Assembly: GCF_006345805.1 (NCBI RefSeq)
Contig: NC_042999.1
Span: 76,818,001-76,882,000, forward strand
Direction: 5' to 3'
From: Octopus sinensis
Taxonomy: Eukaryota
Length of the DNA: 64,000 nt
In this document: one piece after another, positions 1 to 63,344 of the stretch
Position numbering within the stretch: position 1 is the first letter of the stretch
Layout of the letters: each line of letters begins with the position of its first letter
Translations under genes and position numbers: made by a program
The notes under the pieces: generated by a model
Databases searched by the model: none
Seen by the model: only the letters and a program-made list of their open reading frames with translations
Told to the model about the DNA's origin: nothing

Positions 1-2222
1 ATTGTAATTCTGATTCGAGTTACCCACCACGACCTCAAAAACAACTACAACACTGCAACCAATACCGACCGATCGATCCACCTACACAACACCACAACCA
101 GCCGCCATCACCACCAAACGAAAACAACCATTGCAGACACCACCACCTCATCAACACTAACCATTAGCTATATATCGATATATTCGATCACCAAACCCTA
201 TCAGTAGTTCCATCACTAAGGCTGCCAATAGTTCATCCTTATCACTAATCCAATCACTGAAACGTTGTCAAAATTAACCGTGTAAAACTCAATGTCACTC
301 CAGGGATATATTTCTCATCAAGTAAATTCCATAAAATGCCAGCCACCCCATCTCAAACCCGCCTCACATCACTTCACTATAATTACAACCACCTTACTTC
401 ACAACCCACCTACCATCACCACCACCAACACCAGTCACTTCATTCTCATGTTACAATCGCCGATGTCCAATCGTAGAAAATCCAGTAATATATTTACCGA
501 TGGATGATGGCTGCCACTTACGCATTTACTCTTCACGCTTACAATCGAATGATAATAATAACAACAACAACAACAACAACAATAATAATAATAATAATAA
601 TGGTGATAATAATAATCTCACTTATCCCTGATTTTGCATGCATATGAGTATGTGATTATTTAGGTATGTTTGCATGTATGTATGCAAACAAATCTGTATA
701 TACACAGAATTTGTATCGATAGTGTTAAGAAGTAGAGCTATCAACAGAAAAATGAAAGAATCCGAATACCTTTAGTGAGTGAACCAACTCACGTTGTTAG
801 CCGTAATCAAATCTCGACTCTCAAAGAGAATGAGATATTATCTAGCTCGTCCATTTTTCTCTTCAATAGAATACTCGGGATTTAACTTATACTTGACCTG
901 TCTCAAACCCCTACAATCATTTATAACAAAACTACAACAGCTTTTGTCATTTAAATAAACCACGAGAAAGGAAGTGGTCACGTAGCTTTACTTTCACTGA
1001 ATTGAACAGAGGGGGATTTTATTTTAATGTTTATTACATTCTCTCACATCAGAGTTTTAGCTCTGCTGTTGTTAAACGCTGAAAGAAAATAGGATTAATC
1101 TTGAAATAATTCTACCCCGAATCGACATTTTTGACATGTTGTTACAGTGACAATGTTTAAGTGAATCATTAGAAATCAGTGATAGTAATAACGTGTCGAA
1201 GCAAAGCACTTGAGCAACCGCAATGATTTTAACCAGTACACAGATATACACATGGAAAAAAAACACGCACACAACCACACAGACACACTCACGCAACCAC
1301 ATACACTCTCATACACACCGAAAACACTGCGGCAAATAGAAGACTATAGGAACACGCTAAGACACACAGACACACATACAAAGACATGCGCGCGCAAACA
1401 CAAGCCTGCTCACATTTAGATACCAGCATCATCACTCATCATCCTCCCAAAATAGCGCAGAATTCAAGTGAATGATAGACATACACGAGACCTGCAATTT
1501 GTATATGATACCTGATGTTCCACAAAAGTCACTGACATTGTTTGTATAAGACATGCACATGCAGACCTGTGTTCACGGCATTAATACAAATGTAAAATAA
1601 AAAGAAAAAAAACTACAACTACTATTACTACTACGACTACTTAACAACATGGAATTTAGCAAGCTTTTGTTATTTCATTTCGCTACTTTAAAATATCACA
1701 AAGAAAGAAGTAGCTGTCAGTGTTAAAGAGAGCTTCATTGTTCAAACTTGGCAATTGTTACACTGGTGTTCAAAGTATTTGTTTGACAGAATGGCATCGA
1801 ACCAATAGGAATATTCATTAAGAAATGAATATATATATACGCACACACACACACAGACACACACATGTGCATGTATGTGTGTGTATGTGTTACACATATA
1901 TAGACACGCACATGCATACATAGATGCATAGAGATTATAAATTCACGTTTATATCAATAATAATTGGTACACTTGGTTTTATGAGTAAACGCCAAAGTAA
2001 TAACCTGGGTAAGCTAAGGTTTTCAGAAAAAGAAATCAACCACCAAACTCGCACATTACAAATACAACCCGTAAGTGGAACAGTAGAATATGTAAAACTT
2101 TTCTCAAGTCAAAAATATGGCATTGGTTTTATCTACATTCCAACTATGGGGCTGTGTATCTTCGTTAGAAACCAGCCCCTTCCTCACCGGAAAAATTTTA
2201 ATAATTAAAAACAGGAGAGAAC

Positions 2223-2253
<31 letters not shown>

Positions 2254-3286
2254 CATACATACATACATACATACATACATACATACATACATACATACAT
2301 CTTACTACTAAATAGGTAATCAGTTGAAATTTACACTGCATTACAACAAAACAGACATACATACCTCAATTATTATGGATAATGTGCGCTGCATGATCTC
2401 AACAGCATTCGAAAATGCAATATTGAAACAAATGTGTGTGTGTGTATGTGTGTGTGTGTGTGCGTGTGTGTGCGTGTGTGTGTGTGTGTTTGCGCGCGCG
2501 TCCTGTGTGTGTGTGTGTGTGCATAAAGTCATCCATTAACGTCTAGACCTAAAAAAATACGAAATATTTTTAATTTTCTGGAACACCTTACATAGAAAAA
2601 CATTCTGCATACGATTTTCGATATAAATGAAGAAAGAAATAAATGAATTGGAAAAATGTTTTATGCTTTCAGAGTTTATGAAGCATATACAAAAAACAAC
2701 TCAATGCTTTTATTATTTGTTATTCCATTTAATATTGTAAAAGACATTTGTTTCCATTTTCTTTCTACGTTCTGAACATGTCCCCGTAACACCTTACTAC
2801 ATTTCAAAATTATCCTTTTATGTGGAGCATTATCTCTACATTCGAATCTGCATGCATTTATCATCTTACTGTCTTCAAAACATTTAAAAAATAGAATTGT
2901 GATCTTTATTTCTGTTGTGTGGACGCCCCCAGACGATGAAGTAACTAGCCCAGTACGTAGATATAGAGGAATAAGTCTAGACGTCGGGAGTTGAGCAGAG
3001 GTCATCGGAACGAGCGATATAACAATTTCATAACTAGCTGATTCTGTGCCGTCAAAAATGACGGTTAATTGTAGTAATTTTAAATAGAAATAAGGTATAG
3101 AATAAGGCACATAATAATCACAGATACAAACAATCACGTAGTTCCTTTGTACATGGACACACATACAACCATATACTGACACAGAGTTGAAACGCTGATT
3201 TCTTTTTCACTCCTTCCTTCCTCATTCATATGTTGTGACGCAGAGACACGACGCGCTCCTTGTCACTTCCTTTCTCTCATTGCTAT

Positions 3287-3349
<63 letters not shown>

Positions 3350-3462
3350 GGAGCTACTACTCTCACCACTTCTTCACTGAATTACTATTTTCTCTCCTCT
3401 CCCTTCACTTATACTATCCTTTCTCCTACTCCGTCCTACTCATACTCTGTGATATTGGATAA

Positions 3463-7899: not shown

Positions 7900-8990
7900 T
7901 CTGGAGCCAATGTAGATAATAAGTTCAGATTTAGAATAAAACATATCTCCTATCAAAAAAAAGAAAAACCAATTTGAAATGTTTGAAACAAACCTTTTGA
8001 ACCTTGAGGAGTAAACTTCCGGTAAATTCAGAATAGGTTTTTAAATTCTTCCATGCAAATTCCTCTGTCTGTCAAACCAAATACTTTTTACAGTATCGTG
8101 AGAAATCCATATAACAGACTATTATGTAAGAACGTAACTAGCACAGGAAAAACGGCTCTAATACATATAGTTTAATAAAATTGAAAGCCACGGAAATTGT
8201 CGCAACCTTCAAAACAGACAACAAAAAATTTCACTTCGCACACATCAGATATTACATTTAAAGATTACAAAAATTGTTTTCTCTAGTAACCTATATGCAG
8301 GTTAATCTATGCACCAAAATTGGGGTAGGCAGAGTTAACAAATTAAACGTATTTTAAATTTCGTTATTCTTAGAACAAAAGAAAAGCAAAAAAGAAAACG
8401 AAACTTTTTCTCACATCATGAAGCATTAATACGGCCATAATAGACTGGTTTAGCGGTATTAATGACAGACAACACTGTAAATTTATGCAATTTGACGAAA
8501 TTGAATCTTTATTTATAGAAGAGCAGTGCCCTTCCATGACTAAATTACTTCTTAAAATTTAAACTATCACCAACAGCATCACAGAATCCTATAGCAAGAG
8601 CAATATGAAACAAGGAAAAGCGTTTCATTTTTAAATAACTCATCCTTGTTAAAAAACATAAAGTGGTGACAAGTGGTTTGAGGTTTTCATAGGATCACGT
8701 GAAGAACTACAGTAATTTATAATTTTGATTTCTTTCCTAAAAGATTTCTATAAGATATGATCGTCGTATAATCTCGTACAGTATGAACGCTGCTGAGCTA
8801 GGATTGGGGAAAACCTCAATGAAATAAGTTTAAGAGTTACAGCCTAGACAAGCCAAGTTAGTTTTCTGGAGATTAGCTTAAATGTAGATACGAATATATT
8901 TTGCCCACAATAAAAAACCTAATGGAAAACTATTTCATATAAGAATTCGCTTCATTAGTCCCACATGGCATTCTCAGAAATGTAGTATGT
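7900..8990 (+). mobile_element. Decayed Penelope-like element reverse transcriptase fragment
   Basis: Frameshifted motifs in the expected order: EMFETNLLNL, YNRLLCKNVTST, CRLI, AIIDWFSGINDRQHCKFMQFD (from 8434) and VSFLEISLNVDTNIFCP..KPN (from 8857). These resemble the PLE RT motifs VIxWF...FxQFDI and VNFLDVTLNL...PYxKPN. Confidence 0.7.
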
Positions 8991-36015: not shown

Positions 36016-36113
36016 CAATGCACTTTATATTATATATATATATATATATATATATGACACATTGTCACATTACATTTACAGATAAATTATTCTATAATAT
36101 ATATATATATAAA

Positions 36114-52987: not shown

Positions 52988-53570
52988 CAACAGCACCGAC
53001 CCGACCCAAATATGTCAGCAGTCAGTATTTTCTGACCCTGAAGCGGGAGTCTAGTCTTTATAATGCAGTATACGAAATGTATATCTGTAAAATCACTATG
53101 AGAGATGTCGGAGATTAGTAGTACTTGACTTATTTAATTTATATGTAAAACAAACTTGTCAATAACGGAATTTAAAGTGAGAACGTAAAGACACATAATA
53201 TTTGTCTGTATATTTATAGCAATCATTAAATTTTATTTTCTCATCAGTTATAAGTCATTGAAACTGTTCTAAGAAAATGGGCGTTTATCACAACTTTATT
53301 GCGAAAGCCATTTCATACTAACATTAGATTTTTATCCCTGTAATTTTCCTATTTAACTCTAACAGTCCATTCTTCATCAGTTGTAACATTTTTAGCAGCC
53401 TGTTTCCTGCGTCAGGCACCCATACATATACATATAGAGAAATGTAATATGTGACAATTATTCGGTAGCCATGATATAACTCCGAGCTTCGGATGTCGGG
53501 GTGGAAATCCACGCCGTCATCTCTTCAGTTATCCGGCCATCGAAAAAAATGCTATGAAATGCTATACTGA

Positions 53571-54387
53571 TGGCTTATGAGCAATTTAACAACCTAAAGG
53601 CAAATTTATAGACGTCACTAAAGTGACAGAGGGTTCTAAGTAGTACCAGCGTTGCTAGAAATAAGAATGAAAACAACTCAATAGCCACAGAAACATTATC
53701 TTAATAACTGACGTGGGAAACAATCTCCCTAACGGACATAGCCAGATCACCGGTGATTTCGAATTTTAATGCTAAGTGTCTTAATTCTAATTGGAGGCTC
53801 TTATTGCACTTAAGGTTAAACTCAACTCACCTTGTCAGTTTATAAGAAACACATTGAACTCATGCGCTGATTTCAAAAACGATAAAACTGAAAACTACAA
53901 ATGATATGGGTGGCTTGTTAGCAATTTAACAACCTAAAGGCACATTTATAGACGTCACTAAAGTGACAGAGGGTTCTAAGTAGTACCAGGTTTGCTAGAA
54001 ATAAGAGTCAACTCAATAGCTACAGAAGCACTATCATAATGGTTGACAAGGGAGACAATCACCCTAGCGGTTCTTAAATTGCTAATAAGCCACCTATATT
54101 ATTTGTAGTTCTCACTTTTACCATGTTTTAAATCAGCGTATGAGTTCAACGGATTTCTTATAAGCTGACAAGATGAGTTGAGTTTACCTCCAGGCGCAGT
54201 AAGAGCCACCGATGAGAATTAAGAAGCTTTAGCATCAAAATTCGAAATCACTGGTGACCTGGTTGTCTGCTAGGGAGATTGTCTCCCTTGTCAGTCATCA
54301 AGATAGTGCTTTTGTGGCTATTGAGTTGTTTTCATTCTTATTTTTAGCAATACTGGTTCTACATAGCACCCTCTGTGTGTAAAGACG

Positions 54388-54391
<4 letters not shown>
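53571..54391. mobile_element. Retrozyme/Penelope-pLTR-like repeat: 340-bp unit as ~1.5 tandem copies plus one inverted copy
   Basis: GCAATTTAACAACCTAAAGG at 53581 and 53921 (period 340). 54071-54391 is a diverged reverse complement of ~53609-53930. The unit contains a hammerhead-like core. Confidence 0.75.
54204..54264 (+). ncRNA. Type I hammerhead ribozyme-like motif (U4C variant, partly decayed); sister copy on the minus strand at 53740-53799
   Basis: AGCCA-CCGATGA-GAATT..AATTC-GAAA-TCACTGGTGA-CC-TGGTT. The sister copy supplies GAAA-TCACCGGTGA-TC-TGGCT, so stems I, II and III all pair in the two-copy consensus. Confidence 0.65.
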
Positions 54392-54426
<35 letters not shown>

Positions 54427-54462
54427 GTATGTAAGTATGTACAACATATATATATATATATA

Positions 54463-54738
54463 TATCCTCTAGCAGACAGCAAGATTATGAGACTGACTCA
54501 GTTTCGAGCAAGTTGGTTCGTCTTCAGTCGCGAGTACCTGGTGGCCAGACCCATAGCCAGGGTCCACTCCAGCCAGCAATATATTGTAAACAAAGTTCCC
54601 CGCCGTTATGCCAAAAGTAGAGCGCGCGCGTGGGATTTTCGTTTTCAAAGAACGCATCGTGCAGTGATATTTAATCAAGTTTTACCAACAAAAGTCTTTC
54701 CTTGTTTGTTTTGCAAAATAGTGGTTTTGTCTCGAATA

Positions 54739-54775
<37 letters not shown>

Positions 54776-54911
54776 TCACTTTGTTTACAATATATTGCTG
54801 GCTGGAGTGGACCCTGGCTATGGGTCTGGCCACCAGGTACTCGCGACTGAAGACGAACCAACTTGCTCGAAACTGAGTCAGTCTCATAATCTTGCTGTCT
54901 GCTAGAGGATA
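54463..54911. repeat. Perfect 134-bp inverted repeat (54463-54596 / 54778-54911)
   Basis: Arms compared base by base and found to be exact reverse complements. Confidence 0.95.
54843..54887 (+). ncRNA. Type I hammerhead ribozyme-like motif (mirror copy on the minus strand at 54487-54531)
   Basis: CTGAAGA (54847-54853), GAAA (54869-54872), near-palindromic stem III ACTGA-G-TCAGT and a GTC cleavage triplet (54881-54883). Stems I and II are weak. Confidence 0.55.
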
Positions 54912-55133
54912 CTGGAGGTAGCAATATATATGTATATACAGAGTGCAGCGCCGCACCGATAACCAGCTGGAAGAAGATCTGCCTGGGGTTAAACTAGAAG
55001 TAACATGAACAGCCACTTTGATGTGGCGATTAACTTTACTGATATGAGATGCAGGGGCAAAATCCTTTGAGTAGGAGTTAACACCATCCTTCCTGTGTAT
55101 GCATGAAACATTTTTGCGCTGATAGGCTGCATC

Positions 55134-55680
55134 AGTTCCCCGCCGTTATGCCAAAAGTAGAGCGCGCGCGTGGGATTTTCGTTTTCAAAGAACGCATCGT
55201 GCAGTGATATTTAATCAAGTTTTACCAACAAAAGCTTGGCGATACTTAAACCATCTAGAAATTCAGCTGGCCTTTGGCGATGATGCCATGGGCAAAGCTG
55301 AGGTCAAGGGGTGGTACAACTGCTTCAATGGCCACGTAGAAGCAGAGAACGAGGCACGCTGAGGTAAAGTCAAAACAAGGGGCTGATTGAGAAGGTTCGG
55401 TGAATAGTATGGGAGACTGCTCACCAAGTGGGAAAATCCACAGGATCAGTGCATTCTATTTTAACGGAGAATATATGCATACGAAGAGTGTCGGAGAAAT
55501 TCGTCCCCAAGGTGTTGAAGGAGCGGCGTAAATAACTCCGTGTGGAAATCGCTCAGGACATGCTGGACTGTGCAATCCACGACCCAGACTCTTCATGAAG
55601 ATCATCATCACTGGTGATGAGACATGGGTTTATGATCTGTGCTCAATGCATTCGGTCATCTGGCGTGAAAACGAAAATCG
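55134..55680 (+). mobile_element. Decayed mariner transposase, 5' half
   Basis: IQLAFGDDAMGKAEVKGWYNCFN, RRVSEKFVPKVL (WVPREL-equivalent) and IITGDETWVYD. Confidence 0.85.
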
Positions 55681-56280
55681 AACGAGCATGTCTACGCACC
55701 TCCATGTTTCATGTCGAAGAAGTGGCCAAAGACCAACCTAGCTGTGAATGTGTTGGTCGCGATGCCTTTCCTGCGCCCCGGTTCTGGGTTCCTATCTGGA
55801 TCTCCCACTGGTCTAGACTTGTCTGTCATTATTTCCCTATTAGACCTTGTTCATTCCAATCTCATAGCACTTTTCAGAGCGTGCTATCCACCACGGCTAT
55901 TGATAATTTACTCTGTCAACTCCCGCTTAACTAATTTGTTAATCCGGTCTCTGTAAGCTCGGCACGCCGAAAAAAATGCGTTTAGCTCTTCCAGTTACTG
56001 GTCCCTGCTTATGAAGTTCATCTAGGGCGTCCAACAGTTCACAAATTAGTGGTCTGTGTAGCCGGTGGTTTTGAATTGTGCACAAGCTACGCTATCTATA
56101 TCTGCTGGCCTACAGAATATCATATTTAGATACGATCTGGATGACCCGATGCTGCTTGCTCATGTCTATATTGGCACATTCAGTAAATCCAGTCAGTACA
56201 CGTCAATCAGTTGAAAATTACCGTGAACTTTTGGGGAAGCTTTTTATACCCCAGTTTCCTATCAGCTAATTCCACGCAAT

Positions 56281-56500
56281 TCAAACTTGCATCAAAGATG
56301 TATATAGTAGAAGCCTCCTCTTCTCTGCATTTTGTTGAAGATAGAAAGCTCTTAAGTGGTTTTCAGCACTAAACAAATGGCACCTTGGCATTCTACCTTC
56401 AATTGCAACCATTGGGCAGGAGGATAATGTCTGGGGTCTTTTCACCATCTTCCGGTTTGATCTAGAGGGAGGTGTCACTGCCCTCTTAGACAATATAGGC
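56281..56500 (-). mobile_element. Possible L1/Tx1 ORF1 zinc-knuckle remnant
   Basis: CPMVAIEGRMPRCHLFSAENHLRAF resembles the VxVEGRxPxCxxCxxxxHxxxxC pattern with decayed cysteines. Confidence 0.4.
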
Positions 56501-57431
56501 CAGAATCCACCGGATTTCAGACGTGGAGAAACTTACTCTATTTTAACGCAACAGGTTCTTCTTCTCAAATATTTTCGGTAAAGGGTGAGTTCCCAGTTAC
56601 GTATCGAAACTATAGAGTGTCTTAATGCGTGAGTTTTGCTTTTGAAAAGGATAGCTAAGCTCTCAAACTACTTTGTCCTAATCACTTTTTATGTCTCTGT
56701 TTATATATCTTGAGAATTTTTTCTACGTGGGTGTGGGCTGCTGATTCTAGGCATTGGTTGTTTTGCTGACTCACAGCGATAATGCACTGTACTGTTTTCC
56801 GGGCAGTTGCTGCCAAAACCTCAGCTGCGGTTACAGCTTCCGTTTACCTTCACTTGTTTTGTTACCTGCTTCAGGTGTGCATTCTTGTTGTTTAGGGAGA
56901 TTGCGAAATAGTTTGCCTCTATACCAGCAAATGATTTCCTGCCCATGTGGTCACCACTACCATTTACTTTGTCGACGTTGTTGTTGCTGCTGCTGCTACT
57001 GCTGTTGCTGTTGCTTTTGCTTCGGCAGCTCGTGCTGTTGTCTTCTTCTTATTCTTCTTCTTCTCTTATTTTCTTCTTCTTCTTCTTTCTGTTTTCTTCT
57101 TCTCTTTTCTTCTTATTTTCTTTTCTTTTCTTCTTCTTCTTCTTTCTTCTTCCTTATTCTTCTTCTTACAGTCAGGACTCACGCCATTAGCCACAAAGAA
57201 TAATCTCTAATTCGAGGCCTACTCTAAGCTACTAAGAATGCGTGTGGCAACTTGATGATCCACCCACCACACGCGATAGACTGGCGGTTGCACGGGAGCG
57301 AAAGCTACGTTATTATCCTCATTCCGTAAACGGTGGCTTTTAACGGGTGGAGAGCTGAACCATCCTGGGATACAGAGGTTTCGCAATCTAGACTAGGGTC
57401 TGAAAGTTTTACCACACCATGGTGGGTTACA

Positions 57432-57647
57432 CCATGGTTCCTCTGCTTTGTGGCAGAAGTAGGAAGAAAGAGTGAGAGAAAGTTGTGGTGAAAGAGTACA
57501 GCGGGGTTCAAAACCACCCCGCCGGAGCCTCATGGAACTTAGGTGTTTTTGCTCAATAAACACTCACAATGCCCGGTCTGGGAATCGAAACCGCGTTCTT
57601 ACGACCGCGAGTCCGCTGCCCTAACCACTGGGCCATTGCGCCTCCAC
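57432..57647 (-). mobile_element. tRNA-derived SINE (family 3-like)
   Basis: Minus-strand head GGAGGCGCAATGGCCCAGTGGTTAGGGCAGCGGACTCGCGG...GGTTTCGATTCCCAGACC with A and B boxes. Confidence 0.8.
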
Positions 57648-58129
57648 CGTGCTGTTGTTGCTTGTGTTGAAATTTTCATTGTTAAAAACGTTGCCCTTAC
57701 TATTACTACCATTATTATTACCGTTGCGGGTATTATTATAGATGTCATTATTGTTGTTCTTGTGCATGCACTGCTTCTTACAGCTACCCTGGATGGATGT
57801 CGTATTAGAAAGATGGGAAAGCTAATCTCCAATATTGAGATTGGTAGTGGGTATGAGTCATTCCTCCTGCTACTTCGTCACTGAATCTGATACAAGGTAT
57901 TATTGACTCCATAATTCCAGCTGAAGAACAAAAACAGATGAAAGCAGATGAATTTATTCAAAAATTGCGCCCTAAAGGACACGATTTGGTAATTCCCTTC
58001 ATCAAGCAGTTCGGTAGAATCTTCATTCAAAGTTTTAACAAAAATTCAAAACAGTAAACGAAGTGTTCTCAACAAAATTTAACAAACCTTCGGGGGCCAA
58101 ATACAATGCACAAGTACCACAAACGATAA

Positions 58130-58173
58130 CGATAATAATAATAATAAGAAGAAGAAGAAGAAGAAGAAGAAGA

Positions 58174-58222
<49 letters not shown>

Positions 58223-58251
58223 CAATGATGATGATGATGATGATGATGATG

Positions 58252-58297
<46 letters not shown>

Positions 58298-58335
58298 CGA
58301 TGATGATCATGATCAGGATCTGGATGATGACAATG
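58130..58335. repeat. Compound (AAT)/(AAG)/(ATG) microsatellite
   Basis: Directly visible. Confidence 0.95.
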
Positions 58336-58479
58336 ATAGTTTCTTTTATTTGCCTCCAGGGCGACGGATGACAGAGGCAAACAAAGCACGACTCTAAAAC
58401 AATGAGTATAAATATGCAGGTTATGCAAATAATAATTGATGATATTGATTGTGCAAGTCGTCTGATATTATCTGATACA

Positions 58480-60260
58480 GGAGGATCTCTAGTCGAGCTG
58501 GGAAAAGACGTCTCGCGAACGGAACTCATACACATTCACGATCTTTGAATCCTTGCAATGACATAACCTTAGCACGTATCTGCACATCAGAAGCCGCGGT
58601 ATGCCGAAGCCGTCATGCAGAGGATGCTGGTAGCAGACTGACCACCTGACCATTGGAACGCGTCCTTTCCACAACAAAATAAATAACAAGCGTTCCAACC
58701 TGATCGAGCCGTAGCCGGAGTAAGGTATGGCGGTTATGCTATAAACGACGACGGAGGGAATGTAAATATTCGCCACCTCTGCCACACCTTTCAGTGACGG
58801 CTTCCTCTCTGCTCATTCTTGGACAAGATTAGCCTTTACGTCACCTCATCCCAGTATTCTGTTCACTTGGAGGTCGGGACCAAACCAGCCCCGAGCACTT
58901 TAACTGGTCGATCAGTCCAGCGACCAACAACACCGCCCGACGGATTTGACCTGTCTCTTCAGGTGCCCAGTCACAAGCCTACTGACTTGTTGGCGTTAAT
59001 TTTGTCTCCTTTCGCCGACTCATTTCCTTTAAAATGGACCCGACCACCTCCACTTCGGAGGCGTCTGACACCATGACGATGACATCGTCCGTGTATTCCG
59101 ACACTGCTTTCCTGTGTCCCAGTTTAAATGGAATGTCCCTCAACTGTTCCAACTTCCGCAATAATGGCTTGAGAGTCAGAACGAATAGGAGACGTGAGAG
59201 CGGGGAAACCCTGACGAACCGAGCGTGCGATGAGAAACCATTCCAATACGTAGCCATTTACTTTGACCACCGAGCAGGTACCGCGTGTATTGCAGCGATC
59301 CATCCTATAAAAACGGGTCCGATCCTGACTGATTTCAGGACGGCTTCTAGATAACAATGGTCGATCCTCTCGAACGCCTTAGATTCAAATTGATGAGAAC
59401 GCCACCGTAGGCAGCTCTCATTCCAATTATATGCCGTATCATATAAGGTGGAGGTTATCGTGGATAGACCTGTTCTGGATCACGCATGTTTGTGCTTCTC
59501 CGACCAGACTAACGAGGACAAGTGCCAAAATCTTAAACTCTACGTTTACAGAGCTATGGACTGAAAATGTTCTAGTACGTCCTCTTTGCCGGTGTCCTTC
59601 CACACTCCAGCAAACAGCACTAGGAATTCTCTCATTCTGCTGCCATTTACAGTAGACGTCTACCAAGAGGCTACCAAATCTGGCATGAACTCATAGAATC
59701 CATGGGGTGGACCATCCAACCGGACGATTTACGACTTGTGCAACCGCTCATCACCTCCCGTATTTCTGCAGCCGTTATCGGCTTTTCGCAGAACCTTGCG
59801 TCCGCTGTCGAGAGCCGCGGCAAGCTGTCCAGGTACGTACTAAAGTCCGCTACCCGTCGCTAATCCTGTGGTTTTGGTCCTACGTCGTGTCTCCACCGTT
59901 ATGGCCCACTGGACGTTTTTAGTTCCTTCGTATTTATGCATACGGACCTTAGATCTGACATCGCAGCTTTCCTGTTTCACCCCGGAGAAATGGTCAAGGG
60001 CCATTCTCGCCGCTAGCCCGTGGGCCTTGCTATTTTTCCTAATTACCCCTTCTAGGTTGCTAATTAGTTCTCCTTCAAATCTATTTCTTTGTATTGCTAG
60101 TATTGCTAAACACTCTCTCTAAATATGACCTGAATAACTCGTTGTGGCTGCCCCATGTCCACACTGGCGCATCAGGGAAACCTAGTCGATACCTGTTATA
60201 CAGCTGAAAATTTCTGAGCAGGTTTTCGAGACTTTCGTACCATCAACCTACCGACCGGAT
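58480..60260 (-). mobile_element. Decayed Tx1/L1-clade LINE ORF2 (RT region)
   Basis: NVEFKILALVL...QTCVIQNRSIHDNLHLI, SKAFERIDHCYLEAVL, SVRQG, EYTDDV (YADD) and LERLLFILLWKG...GFGIP. Confidence 0.88.
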
Positions 60261-60707
60261 CCAAATGGTGATGATGATGATGGTGGTGGGGAGGAGGATA
60301 AAGAGTATTGAATACGGTGTTGAATGAATATATATAATAGTTGATAAATATAACTACTTTTCAATGATTTCAAATTTCATGCAAAATAGAGCATTCCGCA
60401 AATGATATAATTTTAGATGGATGGATAGGATTCAAGCGAAGACTTTATAATAAATATAAGACTCGAGAGAACGCCTTCATTCGAATGATATTCATCTGAT
60501 TCATGCTCTGCTTAGCATGAAACTTAGTCATGGAAAAGTTGTAATATTTATCTACTGCATTGTAATGTGTGTGCGTGCGTGTGTTTCTGTGCGTGTGTGT
60601 GTGTACATAACACATATATTAAGGGAGATTGCTACACTAGTGACTCAAGCGCTTCTAGCTTCATGTGCGTCCGTGCGTGCGCATGTGTGTGTATGTGTGT
60701 GTGTGTG

Positions 60708-60755
<48 letters not shown>

Positions 60756-60969
60756 GTGTGCGTGTGTGTGTGGTACAATTGAAATGCATGCACTCTATGC
60801 TGCCAGGAATAACACTATGCAATACAATGTAAACTTGATAAATAGAAAGCAGAAAGCAAAAACTAATAACGGTATGACATTGTAAAAAAAAAATGTTCAT
60901 TATACTGTGTAAGCAGTTGAGCATGAAGATACACAGAGACCAGTTTTATAAAAGTAGTGTAAAGCAATT

Positions 60970-61232
60970 TTCTTTTATTATTTTACTATTTTACTTGTTT
61001 CAGTCATTTGACTGCGGCCATGCTGGAGCACCGCCTTTAGTCGAACAAATTGACCCAATGACTTATTCTTTGTAAGCCAAGTACTTATTGTATCGGTCTC
61101 TTAAATACACCAGCATCGGTTGTCAAGCGATGGTGGGAGGACAAACACAGACACACAAATATATGCACACATACATATATTCCGTCTACCAAATCCACTT
61201 ACAAGGTTTTGGTCGGCCCGAGGCTATAGTAG
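60970..61232 (-). mobile_element. SINE family 1, head lost at the junction with the hammerhead element
   Basis: Colinear with 27643-28005 and stops abruptly at AGGCTATAGTAG. Confidence 0.85.
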
Positions 61233-61286
61233 ATTTGACGGATATTTGTCCTCATCTTGTTTGTTGTCCTGATCTTGTTTGTCGTT

Positions 61287-61332
61287 AACACAATGTTTCG
61301 GCTCATATACCCTCCAGCCTTCATCAGGTGTC
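61287..61332 (-). ncRNA. Minimal type I hammerhead ribozyme motif, left arm
   Basis: GACAC-CTGATGA-A-GGCT..AGCC-GAAA-CATT-GTGTT. Core intact; stem I is GACAC/GTGTT. Confidence 0.7.
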
Positions 61333-61632
61333 TTGGGGAAATTTCGAACCTGGGTTCTCATTCCTAAGGTATTTTTCGATGTCATTCTTCTTCTTCTTCT
61401 TCTTTCTTCTTCTTATTCTCTTCTTCTTCTTATTATTATTATTATTATTATTATATTATATTATTATTCACTGCCCGGAATCGAACTCGGAATCTTGGGT
61501 TAGTAGCTCGCACTCTTTACCACTACGCCTACGAGCATATGGCGTAGTGGTTAAGCGCGCGGGCTACTAACCCCAGATTCCGAGTTCGATTCCAGGCAGT
61601 GACATGAATAATAATAATAATAACTAATAATA

Positions 61633-61694
<62 letters not shown>

Positions 61695-61795
61695 CAATAA
61701 TAATAATAATAACAACAACAACAACAACAAACAACAACAACAACAACATCGAAAAATACCTTAGGAATGAGAACTCAGATTCGAAATTTCCCCAA

Positions 61796-61841
61796 GACAC
61801 CTGATAAAGGCTGGAGTGTATATCAACCGAAACGTTGTGTT
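61796..61841 (+). ncRNA. Minimal type I hammerhead ribozyme motif, right arm (G8A mutation)
   Basis: GACAC-CTGATAA-A-GGCTG..CAACC-GAAA-CGTT-GTGTT. The palindromic AACGTT stem III is intact. Confidence 0.6.
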
Positions 61842-61929
61842 AACAACAAACAAGATGAGGACAAATATCCATCAAATGTAAATAATGTAACTAATGTACA
61901 TAATTCCTCATCTCTTAAATATACAACTG

Positions 61930-63344
61930 TATTTACGTTTCTACCTCAGCTTTTCGATTTTTACGATATATTACATTAAAGTATACTTATTATTCCCAAT
62001 AAATTTTGTAGCAAGTGATTAATATCTAAATAATTTATAATAGAAAAAATGTTTATTTGAAAATACAAGGCGAACAAAATCAGAAAACATGATGTAAAAT
62101 TCAAGAAATCAAAATTTTGCCAGAAATGTTTATATTCCACATCAATATATTACATTTCTTTATTTTTGATGACTTTAGTACATCTCCATCCACAGGATTT
62201 GACCAATTTCTGACCACAATTTTATTCAATTCGTCCAGAACTTTTTCCCACAAAGTCGTAACATTCACAGGTCGGTGTTCCCTGATCATATTGCCAAGTA
62301 TCTTCCATAAGTTTTCAATGGGATTTAGGTCATGGATCTGAGCTGACCAACGCATCACAATAATGTTTTCAGCTTCAAACACCTTAACTATTTTAGCACT
62401 GTGATATGGAGCACTATCCTGCAGAAAGATTGGCTGACGAGTTGGCGATGACCTCATAGCTGGCACAACATGCTGCTGCAGAAAATGTTTTTGTACATGG
62501 CTGAAATCATCCCCACACCATTAAACCCCTACCTCCAAATTTCACCGATTTCTTTACGCATTCAGGAAGCAATCTACCATGAGAGCCAACCAAATTGAAC
62601 TTGCTTGCGTCACTGAAAAAGTTATGATCCGTCATAGTACTTGCTTGTTGGTAAAGACTAACCTCGCTTTTCGGTTCTTCATACTAATGAGAGGTTTCAT
62701 GGTCGTAGATCGCGCATGTAGTCCGACTTCCTTCAAACAACGAGCCACAGTCTTCCGAGACATATTCATTCTGCAGTCACGATTTACTTGGCGAAAAATT
62801 CCTGCAGCAGTATCGAAACAGTCGTTTAACGATAGCCACTGAATCAGTTTTGCCGAACACTTTTTCGTGGTCTCCCTGGTTTTCCTAATGACACAAACGA
62901 GCTTGTTTCTTCATAATGCTTCAGTATTCTTGAAGCAACACTCTTTGATCTGTCAATGTCTCTGCCGACAACAGAAATTGCCATTCTTTCTTTTTCAATG
63001 TGACAGCTCGCCTCCTTGAGGCATTCAACTTTACATTGGCTTTACATTGGTTGTTAAAATCTTCGCACTGTTAGGTTATTTTGGTTTACATTGGCCGGAG
63101 TGTTGCCAGATTTTTCCTTTTTCAAATTTACACTTTACGTTCCTTAATTTTGTCCATCTTGTATATTTCAAATAAACATTTTCTCTACTATAAATTATTT
63201 AGTTACTAAGCACTTCCTACAAAATTTATTGAGAGTAATGAACATACTTTAAAGTAGATACAGTAAAAATCCCATTCAGAAAAATGAAGTAGAAATGTAA
63301 ATATCTTTAATTAGATTTTCGTTCTCTAATTTTGACCACCTCTG
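61930..63344 (-). mobile_element. Decayed Tc1 (DD34E) transposon with long (~200-bp) TIRs; left TIR clipped
   Basis: IFLQDSAPYHSAK...WSAQIHDLNPIENLW in ORF 62101-62466. 61930-62085 mirrors ~63145-63303. The right end reads TA-CAGAGGTGGTCAAAATT on the minus strand. Confidence 0.88.

What the first reader, a model, noticed from the sequence alone, without database searches (positions are those of the whole stretch)
53460..61929. Three or four independent hammerhead-bearing families within 8.5 kb, with shared inverted architecture
Seen: sequence-unrelated elements at 53571-54391, 54463-54911 and 61233-61929 share the same design, a hammerhead core plus self-complementary stem III plus an inverted partner copy. 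A fourth, weaker motif lies at 53476-53532. A decayed Penelope-like RT lies at 7900-8990 in the same window. Inference: this genome hosts a diverse set of non-autonomous ribozyme retroelements that exploit PLE machinery. They may generate dsRNA hairpins in a lineage known for extensive A-to-I editing. The cluster lies 12-20 kb upstream of the bib-like start codon.
Basis: inference. Interest (0 to 1): 0.72.

Follow-up and report, generated by a model that had tools for sequence, protein, structure and literature searches.

The report
Four hammerhead-tagged Penelope-type short retroposons
This stretch holds worn copies of four unrelated, abundant short repeats that each carry a hammerhead-ribozyme motif and mirror-image partner copies, and they were likely copied by Penelope-like retrotransposon enzymes, a kind of parasite already described in other animals.

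Summary
Window 53440-55043 and 61233-61931 contain copies of four repeat families with no sequence similarity to each other. First-look counts in the genome are at least 283 to 3392 candidates per family. At family level each carries a type-I hammerhead (HHR) layout with a palindromic helix III.

All window copies are decayed, and Rfam reports no hammerhead in the window.

The families show the published insertion hallmarks of Penelope-like elements (PLEs):
- variable 5' truncation and partial tandems;
- a head-to-head inverted partner;
- two discrete 3' ends, with the extra "tail" on one arm only;
- 11-13 bp target duplications;
- ends in microsatellites.

The genome also holds many RT+GIY-YIG PLEs, some 97-99% identical to each other.

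Not confirmed: the "decayed Penelope RT" at 7900-8990, and sequence similarity to any of the 20 PLE loci I examined. The dsRNA and A-to-I editing idea could not be tested, because no RNA run was listed.

The kind is known: PLE min-HHRs, non-LTR retrozymes and schistosome Sm-alpha SINEs. These are new members. Earlier notes of this scan describe similar elements on other DNA.

One family has C instead of U at core position 4 yet still multiplied.

The parts
53440..53559 (-). Family 4 copy. It lacks about the first 60 nt of the 267-nt unit and has the short 3' end type, followed by decayed TA-rich sequence. The hammerhead remnant lies at about 53476-53532, with A15.1 changed to G.
   Evidence: Copies elsewhere are 93-97% identical; the first look gave 1804 candidates.
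53571..53934 (-). Family 1 full unit with the long 3' end. Its 3' terminus abuts the 5' end of the family 4 copy. The hammerhead remnant at about 53740-53799 has a decayed core.
53911..54068 (-). Family 1 partial unit (unit positions about 205-365). It lies in partial tandem upstream of the full minus-strand unit. Its 5' end meets the plus-strand copy head to head at 54068/54069.
   Evidence: The junction is spanned without differences by DNA contigs of three runs (X1 record 5, X2 record 13, X3 record 20).
54069..54384 (+). Family 1 right arm with the short 3' end, running into a (CA)n tract. The hammerhead layout is at about 54204-54263, with C at core position 4 (54210) and U16.1 changed to C.
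54463..54596 (-). Family 2 inverted arm. It is the reverse complement of unit positions 1-134, 100% identical to the right arm, and ends in a (TA)n tract. The hammerhead layout is at about 54485-54534.
54772..55043 (+). Family 2 unit. It starts directly after a (TA)n tract. The hammerhead layout is at 54840-54889, with the predicted cut after 54883. Helix I has decayed at CpGs and helix II has one mismatch.
61233..61529 (-). Family 3 left arm. It comprises a tRNA-like head (61468-61529), a microsatellite (about 61374-61467) and the hammerhead module (61233-61373) with the short end, no tail. The core starts at 61327 on the minus strand. The helix III palindrome has decayed.
61541..61931 (+). 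Family 3 right arm. It comprises a tRNA-like head (61541-61602), an (AAT/AAC)n tract (61603-61748) and the hammerhead module (61749-61931) with the long end, including the tail of about 30 nt. The hammerhead is at about 61796-61841, with G8 changed to A at 61806. The predicted cut is after 61836.

Best explanation
These are decayed copies of four unrelated families of short, non-coding retroposons that each carry a type-I hammerhead motif near their 3' end and were likely copied into the genome by the reverse transcriptase/GIY-YIG endonuclease of Penelope-like elements (PLEs).

Shown directly:
- the families exist, are abundant and are unrelated to each other;
- each has the hammerhead layout at family level;
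- the sense strand is defined by the polarity of 5' truncation and, in family 3, by a tRNA-like head;
- close partners are head to head;
- each of families 1, 3 and 4 has two discrete 3' ends;
- target duplications are 11-13 bp;
- ends lie in microsatellites.

Inferred mechanism, by analogy with the Anolis PLE studied in vitro (PMC11167929):
1. A PLE protein would bind the RNA region around and downstream of the hammerhead.
2. It would cut AT-rich or microsatellite DNA on both strands.
3. It would start reverse transcription at one of two internal sites. This gives a copy with or without the tail.
4. Priming from both DNA strands would give the mirror-image pair with 3' ends pointing outwards.
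5. Templates longer than one unit would give the partial tandems.

The hammerhead may cut multimeric RNA as a dimer through its palindromic helix III. It may instead serve mainly as part of the protein-binding fold. Neither role was tested.
For: Families and abundance:
- F2: 283 first-look candidates, 43 matches listed, 81-87% identity.
- F3: 3392 candidates, 90-95% identity.
- F1: 1232 candidates, 77-85% identity.
- F4: 1804 candidates, 93-97% identity.
- An exact 25-mer of the F3 hammerhead occurs 2646+2643 times; the reversed control occurs 0 times.
- An F4 26-mer occurs 255+242 times; control 0.

Hammerhead layout at majority state (n = 20, 13, 24 and 18 distinct copies):
- a CUGANGA-type core, and GAAA;
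- G10.1-C11.1 closing helix II in all four families;
- A15.1-U16.1 followed by a palindromic helix III in all four;
- H17 is C or U;
- helix I is 5-6 bp (for F2 this is seen in copy L007, which keeps its CpGs);

Chance control: the descriptor gives 1 hit in 200 shuffles, and 3 of 4 family majority states pass.

Rfam: one copy (L007) reaches Hammerhead_HH9 at 27.7 bits, E 0.0034, below the cut-off of 52.

PLE hallmarks:
- Head-to-head partners. 16 of 16 adjacent partners of F4 are (-,+), and 16 of the 40 primary matches have one. For F3, 9 of 9 close pairs among the first 100 listed places are (-,+). For F4, 4 of 6 close pairs are (-,+).
- One-sided tail. In 6 of 6 F3 pairs one arm has the tail of about 30 nt and the other lacks it.
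- Dimorphic ends. F4 ends lie 66 nt apart, and both abut (TA)n. F1 has a short end in 4 of 20 copies and a long end 48 nt further on.
- Variable 5' truncation.
- Partial tandems in F1 and F2.
- Target duplications of 11-13 bp in L015, L020, L023 and L024.

PLE enzymes in the genome:
- 5029 GIY-YIG candidates; 147 of 150 scored match.
- A 781-aa ORF carries RVT_1 and GIY-YIG.
- Copies of that element are 97-99% identical.
Against: - No sequence similarity between the four families and the flanks or termini of the 12+8 PLE loci examined, apart from short or nested matches. No autonomous partner is identified.
- Rfam calls no hammerhead in the window. None of the seven best copies searched reaches a gathering score.
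- All window copies fail both descriptors.
- F1's ancestral core has C at position 4: 14 of 20 copies keep C4 and 5 have U4, consistent with CpG decay. From recalled mutagenesis of minimal hammerheads this should strongly reduce cleavage.
- F4 has an extra C between 11.1 and G12, which is not a described hallmark.
- F2's majority helix I does not pair.
- MFE folds recover helix II but not always the three-way junction.
- ARAGORN finds no tRNA in the F3 heads, in the window or in 6 loci.
- No target duplication is evident for the window's own F3 unit.
- The loci examined are the best matches to the window copies, so they are a biased sample.
Confidence: 0.8

Rival explanations
1. The short copies are not separate non-autonomous families. 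They would be heavily 5'-truncated terminal fragments (pLTR plus the RT start region) of full-length autonomous PLEs.
For: PLE insertions are highly 5'-truncated, and the hammerhead lies in the pLTR (PMC8557442). In the Anolis element the RT start lies about 85-92 nt downstream of the hammerhead cut, similar to the 44-180 nt seen here.
Against: F4 has a defined 267-nt unit with the same 5' start in 4 copies. F3 starts with a tRNA-like head and has a second head type in other copies. F1 and F2 repeat as units of about 340-370 nt. No copy examined runs into an RT/EN ORF. The 20 PLE loci share no sequence with them.
Confidence: 0.08
2. They are ordinary LINE-dependent SINEs, and the hammerhead-like motif is incidental.
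For: F3 has a pol III-type head with box A- and box B-like words, judged by eye. Octopus genomes are rich in LINEs and SINEs (PMC13282606).
Against: There is no poly(A) or LINE-like 3' tail. Both arms of a pair contain the same 3' region, which L1-type twin priming does not give. The one-sided tail and two discrete 3' ends are described as a PLE signature. Four unrelated families share the same ribozyme layout.
Confidence: 0.05
3. They are MITE or foldback DNA transposons whose terminal inverted repeats happen to contain the motif.
For: Long inverted repeats, one of them perfect (134 nt), in AT-rich surroundings.
Against: Single non-inverted copies are the majority: 13 of 20 F3 loci and 24 of 40 F4 primary matches. 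Arms are unequal and junctions differ from locus to locus. Copies are 5'-truncated. Target duplications vary from 11 to 13 bp.
Confidence: 0.03
4. The motifs are chance matches in AT-rich repeats.
For: Rfam reports nothing in the window. All window copies fail the descriptors.
Against: There is 1 descriptor hit in 200 shuffled windows, against 3 of 4 family majority states passing. The same layout appears with different helix sequences in four unrelated families. Two more canonical motifs turned up in one unrelated 6.3-kb locus.
Confidence: 0.01

Closest known systems
Minimal and short-helix-III type-I hammerheads in the pLTRs of metazoan Penelope-like elements (Cervera and de la Pena 2014, PMC4209133; passages read)
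   Same: Type-I layout. G10.1-C11.1. Palindromic 15.2-16.2 or loop 3, which implies action as a dimer. [quoted passage not shown] Many sequence-diverse families within one genome.
   Different: Here the motif sits in short non-coding elements, not in the repeats flanking an RT/EN ORF. F1 has C4 and no extra nucleotide. F4 has its extra nucleotide on the 3' side of helix II. Cephalopods are not mentioned in the passages I read.
Insertion units of EN+ PLEs: partial tandem pLTRs, an inverted 5'-truncated copy, a one-sided 30-40 bp tail, microsatellite bias (PMC8557442), and the Anolis PAc element in vitro (PMC11167929)
   Same: All these structural features are seen in the four families. Two discrete 3' ends match the two RT start sites. 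Head-to-head pairs fit cleavage and extension of both strands. The hammerhead lies upstream of the RT start region.
   Different: There is no ORF. Tail lengths here are about 30 nt (F3), 48 nt (F1) and 66 nt (F4), against the published 30-40 bp. The helper PLE is not identified.
Metazoan non-LTR retrozymes (Cervera and de la Pena 2020, PMC7229834; preprint 10.64898/2026.07.22.740005)
   Same: Non-autonomous units of a few hundred nt carrying a type-I hammerhead, proposed to be PLE derivatives. F1 and F2 occur as copies longer than one unit.
   Different: Retrozymes are defined by tandem arrays and circular RNAs. Here copies are mostly dispersed singles or inverted pairs, and no RNA data were available.
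[quoted passage not shown]
   Same: A tRNA-related SINE-like element carrying a hammerhead motif at very high copy number, as in F3.
   Different: A different phylum and no sequence relation. In F3 a variable microsatellite separates the head from the hammerhead module. The F3 insertion signature is PLE-type; I did not check what is known about the helper of Sm-alpha.

Membership tests
Hammerhead ribozyme, type I | Conserved core C3 U4 G5 A6 N7 G8 A9 ... G12 A13 A14 | tested here: inconclusive
   The majority states of F2, F3 and F4 have the core. F1 has C at position 4 in 14 of 20 copies. Every window copy has at least one change in the core or a closing pair.
Hammerhead ribozyme, type I | Three helices around the core with helix I open, A15.1-U16.1, and a cleavage-site nucleotide that is not G | tested here: met
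   Met at family level in all four families. F2's helix I is seen only in the copy that keeps its CpGs (L007)..
Hammerhead ribozyme, type I | Score at or above the Rfam gathering threshold of a hammerhead model | tested here: not met
   0 hits in the window. Among seven good copies, only L007 hits Hammerhead_HH9, at 27.7 bits against a cut-off of 52 (150 of 175 rows were shown).
Hammerhead ribozyme, type I | Self-cleavage | not testable with these tools
   Needs in vitro transcription of monomer and dimer constructs.
Metazoan PLE-type hammerhead (PMC4209133) | [quoted passage not shown] | tested here: inconclusive
   Present in F2 (U) and F3 (A). Absent in F1 and F4.
Metazoan PLE-type hammerhead (PMC4209133) | G10.1-C11.1 and a palindromic 15.2-16.2 or loop 3 | tested here: met
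   Met in all four families. F3 has only the 4-nt palindrome ACGU, so helix III can form only between two molecules.
EN+ Penelope-like element insertion unit | 5' truncation, partial tandems and an adjacent inverted 5'-truncated copy | tested here: met
.
EN+ Penelope-like element insertion unit | An optional tail at one end only, giving two discrete 3' ends | tested here: met
   F3: 6 of 6 pairs have one long and one short end. F4 has two ends 66 nt apart. F1 has a short end in 4 of 20 copies. F2 was not resolved.
EN+ Penelope-like element insertion unit | Insertion bias for AT-rich or microsatellite DNA | tested here: met
   3' ends abut (TA)n, (TG)n, (CA)n or (CT)n tracts in the window and in many copies. 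No background rate was computed.
EN+ Penelope-like element insertion unit | An ORF with RT and GIY-YIG endonuclease | tested here: not met
   The four families are non-coding. Such ORFs exist elsewhere in the genome. The elements are therefore at most non-autonomous dependants, not PLEs proper.
Non-autonomous PLE derivative | Sequence similarity of the 3' region to an autonomous PLE of the same genome | tested here: inconclusive
   None was found in 20 PLE loci, out of at least 5029 GIY-YIG candidates. Most PLE diversity was not sampled.
Non-LTR retrozyme | Tandem arrays of hammerhead units and circular RNA | tested here: inconclusive
   F1 and F2 reach about 1.1-2 units. RNA was not available.
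tRNA-derived SINE (F3 only) | A tRNA-related head with a pol III promoter | tested here: inconclusive
   Box A- and box B-like words and an anticodon-arm-like hairpin were judged by eye; the consensus is recalled. ARAGORN finds 0 genes in the window region and in 6 loci. Rfam gives no tRNA hit at E<=10 in the window region.
MITE / foldback DNA transposon | Terminal inverted repeats on every copy and a fixed target duplication | tested here: not met
   Most copies are single and not inverted. Arms and junctions vary.

The most novel reading that the evidence does not exclude
A large share of the octopus 'SINE' expansion is driven by Penelope-type enzymes, not by LINEs. Tens of thousands of short hammerhead-tagged elements, including a tRNA-headed one, would be copied by two-strand, two-site priming. 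The hammerhead fold would act mainly as the handle that the PLE protein recognises, because a family with an inactivating-looking C4 core still reached over a thousand copies.
Probability: 0.3. Interest if true: 0.7.

Novelty: new member of a known kind. Interest (0 to 1): 0.42.

Why it matters
SINEs are reported as 11.6% of an octopus genome, and 893 recently active SINE families remain unclassified (PMC13282606). If many of them are Penelope-dependent, hammerhead-tagged elements, the driver of the cephalopod repeat expansion would need re-labelling.

These families also give a natural data set for the PLE mechanism that has so far been studied with one lizard element. They show two discrete 3' ends, one-sided tails of different length per family, and strictly head-to-head pairs.

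The C4-core family is a natural test of whether ribozyme cleavage is needed for spread. It would fit the in vitro finding that hammerhead mutants still insert.

The long hairpins that inverted pairs could form as RNA are plausible ADAR substrates, but that remains untested.

Tried and rejected
- Rfam at gathering threshold on the whole window gave nothing. At E<=10 on 53000-62500 it gave only microsatellite-driven miRNA/snoRNA noise.
- Rfam on seven good copies gave one sub-threshold HH9 hit.
- ARAGORN on the window region and on six F3 loci gave no tRNA.
- The claimed PLE RT at 7900-8990 was not found. Six read-through frames against Pfam gave nothing relevant. tblastn with six PLE ORFs gave only low-complexity hits elsewhere in the window.
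- The search for an autonomous partner failed. blastn of representatives of the four families against 12 GIY-YIG loci (+-1.5 kb) and 8 full-length PLE loci (6.3 kb each) gave only short or nested matches. The young 781-aa PLE family shows no canonical hammerhead with my loose scan.
- RNA evidence: no RNA holder was listed.
- DNA contigs of three runs confirm parts of the locus, including the F1 head-to-head junction. They could not resolve the perfect F2 palindrome.
- MFE and cofold predictions did not decide for or against the three-way junction.
- My first strict descriptor, which required helix III of at least 3 bp, was too strict for decayed copies: 3/22, 0/15, 0/24 and 9/11 passed.
- A target duplication for the window's F3 unit was not evident.
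- Print searches. In one search, 46 papers held at least 2 of 'hammerhead ribozyme', 'Penelope-like' and 'octopus'. Among the 20 listed, only two hold 'octopus'. One mentions Naiad PLE families only. The other contains neither 'hammerhead' nor 'ribozyme'.
- Searches showed no paper, by title or abstract, on a PLE-mobilised tRNA-headed SINE.
- Supplements were not read. Repbase and Dfam could not be consulted.

Full report
WHAT IS THERE

The window is G000:C3:76818001-76882000 of a 2.72-Gb animal genome. Earlier notes of this scan call it octopus; I did not verify the species.

- 54463-54596 / 54778-54911: 134 nt, 100%.
- 53774-53934 / 54069-54229: 161 nt, 83%.
- 53626-53738 / 54264-54376: 113 nt, 86%.
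- 61264-61417 / 61711-61864: 154 nt, 85%.
- 61468-61529 / 61541-61602: 62 nt, 90%.

Rfam finds nothing at gathering level in the whole window. It finds no hammerhead family even at E<=10 in 53000-62500.

FOUR FAMILIES

Searching the genome with each piece shows four dispersed families:

| Family | Window copies | First-look candidates | Identity of listed copies |
|---|---|---|---|
| F1 | 53571-54384 | 1232 | 77-85% |
| F2 | 54463-55043 | 283 | 81-87% |
| F3 | 61233-61931 | 3392 | 90-95% |
| F4 | 53440-53559, minus strand | 1804 | 93-97% |

- These counts are lower bounds, because only 40 candidates are scored per search.
- An exact 25-mer of the F3 hammerhead occurs 5289 times in the genome; the reversed control occurs 0 times.
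- An F4 26-mer with three CpGs occurs 497 times; control 0.
- Representatives of the four families share no similarity (best 16 nt, E 0.011).
- Outside 53.4-55.0 kb and 61.2-61.9 kb the window holds only a 35-nt F4 scrap at 36061-36095.
- Unit sizes are about 340-365 nt for F1 and 267 nt for F4, which has a shared 5' start in four copies.
- For F2 the unit is 266 nt, plus about 100 nt that links tandem units.
- For F3 the unit is a tRNA-like head, a variable (AAT/AAG/AAC)n tract and a 181-nt 3' module.
- Some F3 modules carry a different 5' head (L017, L028 and a second copy in L032).

THE HAMMERHEAD

In aligned copies and in the majority state of 20, 13, 24 and 18 distinct copies, each family has:
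- on its sense strand, a CUGANGA-type heptamer;
- a helix II closed by G10.1-C11.1;
- GAAA;
- a helix III that starts with A15.1-U16.1 and is a palindrome;
- C or U at the cleavage site;
- 5-6 pairs of helix I between the sequence before the core and the sequence after the cut.

The helix sequences differ in every family.

Helix III by family:
- F3 has only ACGU, so helix III can form only between two molecules.
- F1 has a 12-nt perfect palindrome.
- F2 and F4 have odd palindromes with a central G.

Other family-specific features:
- That extra nucleotide, G10.1-C11.1 and the palindromic 15.2-16.2 or loop 3 are the features Cervera and de la Pena list as recurrent in metazoan PLE hammerheads (PMC4209133, passages).
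- F4 instead has an extra C between 11.1 and G12.
- F1 has C at core position 4. In total 14 of 20 copies keep C there. Five have U and four have the CCA form. This is the pattern expected if an ancestral CCG decayed at its CpG.
- F2's helix I is a CpG-rich palindrome. It pairs only in the copy that keeps its CpGs (L007).

All window copies are worn:
- F1 right arm: C4, and U16.1 changed to C.
- F1 left arm: core lost.
- F2: a helix II mismatch and a decayed helix I.
- F3 right arm: G8 changed to A.
- F3 left arm: helix III palindrome lost.
- F4: A15.1 changed to G.

Chance control. I used a descriptor that encodes the hallmarks; it was written after I had seen the families.
- It gives 0 hits in the real window and 1 hit in 200 dinucleotide shuffles.
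- The majority states of F1, F3 and F4 pass.
- 1 of 20, 0 of 13, 6 of 24 and 13 of 18 individual copies pass.
- An earlier, stricter version gave 1 hit in 100 shuffles.

Rfam on seven good copies gives only a sub-threshold Hammerhead_HH9 hit in L007 (27.7 bits, E 0.0034, cut-off 52). MFE folding was not decisive. Whether any of these RNAs cleaves is untested.

INSERTION ARCHITECTURE

Orientation of close partners:
- For F4, 16 of the 40 primary matches have an adjacent partial copy. All 16 are in (-,+) order, with 5' ends facing and 3' ends outward. The partner is truncated at varied 5' points.
- For the F3 25-mer, the first 100 listed places contain 9 pairs closer than 400 bp. All 9 are (-,+). 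About 0.05 such pairs would be expected from the density.
- For the F4 26-mer, 4 of 6 close pairs are (-,+).
- In F3, junctions between the two heads differ from locus to locus, so the pairs arose repeatedly.

Two discrete 3' ends:
- In 6 of 6 F3 pairs among 20 loci, one arm ends with the last ~30 nt (the tail) and the other stops just before it. Among singles, 10 have the tail and 3 lack it.
- In L015 a 12-bp target duplication encloses a 9-nt inverted piece of the tail terminus plus a tail-less, 5'-truncated copy.
- F4 has two ends 66 nt apart, and both abut (TA)n.
- F1 has a short end in 4 of 20 copies, including the window's right arm. Its long end lies 48 nt further on, as in the window's left arm.

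Other features:
- Target duplications of 11-13 bp flank L020, L023 and L024. Two of these carry one mismatch. None is evident for the window's own F3 unit.
- F1 and F2 copies are often longer than one unit or carry a direct partial copy.
- In the window the pieces are packed around microsatellites. The order is: F4 copy; F1 unit in partial tandem on the minus strand; F1 on the plus strand; (CA)n(TA)n; F2 inverted arm; (TA)n; F2 unit.

COMPARISON WITH WHAT IS KNOWN

Craig et al. (PMC8557442, passages) describe PLE insertions as:
- highly 5'-truncated;
- in partial tandems forming pLTRs;
- often with an inverted 5'-truncated copy at the 5' end;
- with a 30-40 bp tail at only one end;
- with a microsatellite bias;
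- with hammerheads in the pLTRs of canonical clades.

Frangieh et al. (PMC11167929, main text read) show the following for an Anolis PLE:
- The protein cuts and extends both DNA strands.
- It prefers AT-rich DNA.
- It starts reverse transcription at two adjacent internal RNA sites whose spacing is the tail.
- It does not need hammerhead cleavage to insert.
- The RT starts lie about 85-92 nt downstream of the hammerhead cut.

In the four families the 3' ends lie about 44-180 nt downstream of the predicted cut, in the same order along the RNA.

The genome has the enzymes:
- 5029 GIY-YIG candidates, of which 147 of 150 scored match.
- A 781-aa ORF with RVT_1 and GIY-YIG.
- Copies of that element that are 97-99% identical.

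The idea that animal hammerhead repeats are non-autonomous PLE derivatives is in print:
- non-LTR retrozymes, PMC7229834 (passages);
- preprint 10.64898/2026.07.22.740005 (abstract and section 14).

A tRNA-related SINE-like element with a hammerhead is also known from schistosomes (Sm-alpha and Sj-alpha, as described in PMC2770079). The kind is therefore known.

What I did not find in print is any such family in cephalopods. The recent Octopus vulgaris repeat paper contains neither 'hammerhead' nor 'ribozyme'. Supplements, Repbase and Dfam were not seen.

Earlier notes of this scan reach similar readings on other windows, including two on this genome. They are not independent evidence. I reached my reading before reading them.

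WHAT FAILED OR STAYS OPEN

- The 'decayed Penelope RT' at 7900-8990 was not confirmed.
- No PLE among the 20 loci examined shares sequence with any of the four families. The helper is therefore inferred from the insertion signature only.
- The tRNA nature of the F3 head rests on my reading of box A- and box B-like words. ARAGORN and Rfam do not call it.
- No RNA run was listed. Expression, cleavage ends, circles and A-to-I editing of the hairpins are all untested.
- DNA contigs from three runs of two studies reproduce parts of the locus, including the F1 head-to-head junction.
- The F2 arms are 100% identical although the family is old. A 101-bp perfect direct duplication (54594-54694 and 55134-55234) lies beside them. 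This points to a recent local rearrangement, to gene conversion between the arms, or to an assembly problem. I could not tell which.
- The loci I studied are the best matches to the window copies, so they are not a random sample.

VERDICT

The main interpretation is supported by structure but not by a sequence link to a helper. The kind is known, and these are new members.

The most useful new points:
- One genome holds many unrelated hammerhead-tagged families. Two further canonical motifs turned up by accident in L079.
- Each family has its own tail length.
- A family with a C4 core spread to over a thousand copies.

Noticed in passing
window 54594-54694 and 55134-55234, with 54463-54596 / 54778-54911: A 101-bp direct duplication at 100% identity lies next to the 134-bp perfect palindrome arms of an otherwise old family (81-87% between copies). 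This suggests a recent local rearrangement, gene conversion between the arms, or an assembly artefact.
   Followed up: partly
window 54680-54743: This piece of the spacer between the F2 arms has by far the highest summed contig depth of the stretch in all three DNA runs. It therefore belongs to another extremely abundant repeat. Part of it resembles the region upstream of F2 units in other copies.
   Followed up: no
L079 read as reverse complement, about 586 (+) and 981 (-): Two further, unrelated, canonical type-I hammerheads with 8-nt palindromic helix III lie in opposite orientation upstream of a PLE ORF. Hammerhead-tagged elements seem very common in this genome.
   Followed up: partly
L079 (reverse complement) about 4766, and L068 about 867 (-): Two different PLE loci share a hammerhead-like word, but helix II closes with U-A instead of G-C and the nucleotide after U16.1 is G. 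In L079 it lies about 500 nt downstream of the GIY-YIG ORF stop. It may be a degenerate pLTR motif.
   Followed up: no
L080-L084 (for example L081:1932-4274): A young PLE family has a 781-aa RT+GIY-YIG ORF. Its copies are 97-99% identical over up to 4.3 kb, and its 3' UTR holds ~100-nt tandem repeats. It ends in (TA)n. It is likely still active.
   Followed up: partly
L017, L028, L032 (second copy): The F3 hammerhead module also occurs behind a different, non-tRNA-like 5' head shared by these three loci. The 3' module therefore appears to be exchanged between heads.
   Followed up: no
window 53565-53571: The 3' terminus of the minus-strand F1 unit runs directly into the 5'-truncated start of the F4 copy on the same strand. 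This could be a nested insertion or a template switch between two RNAs.
   Followed up: no
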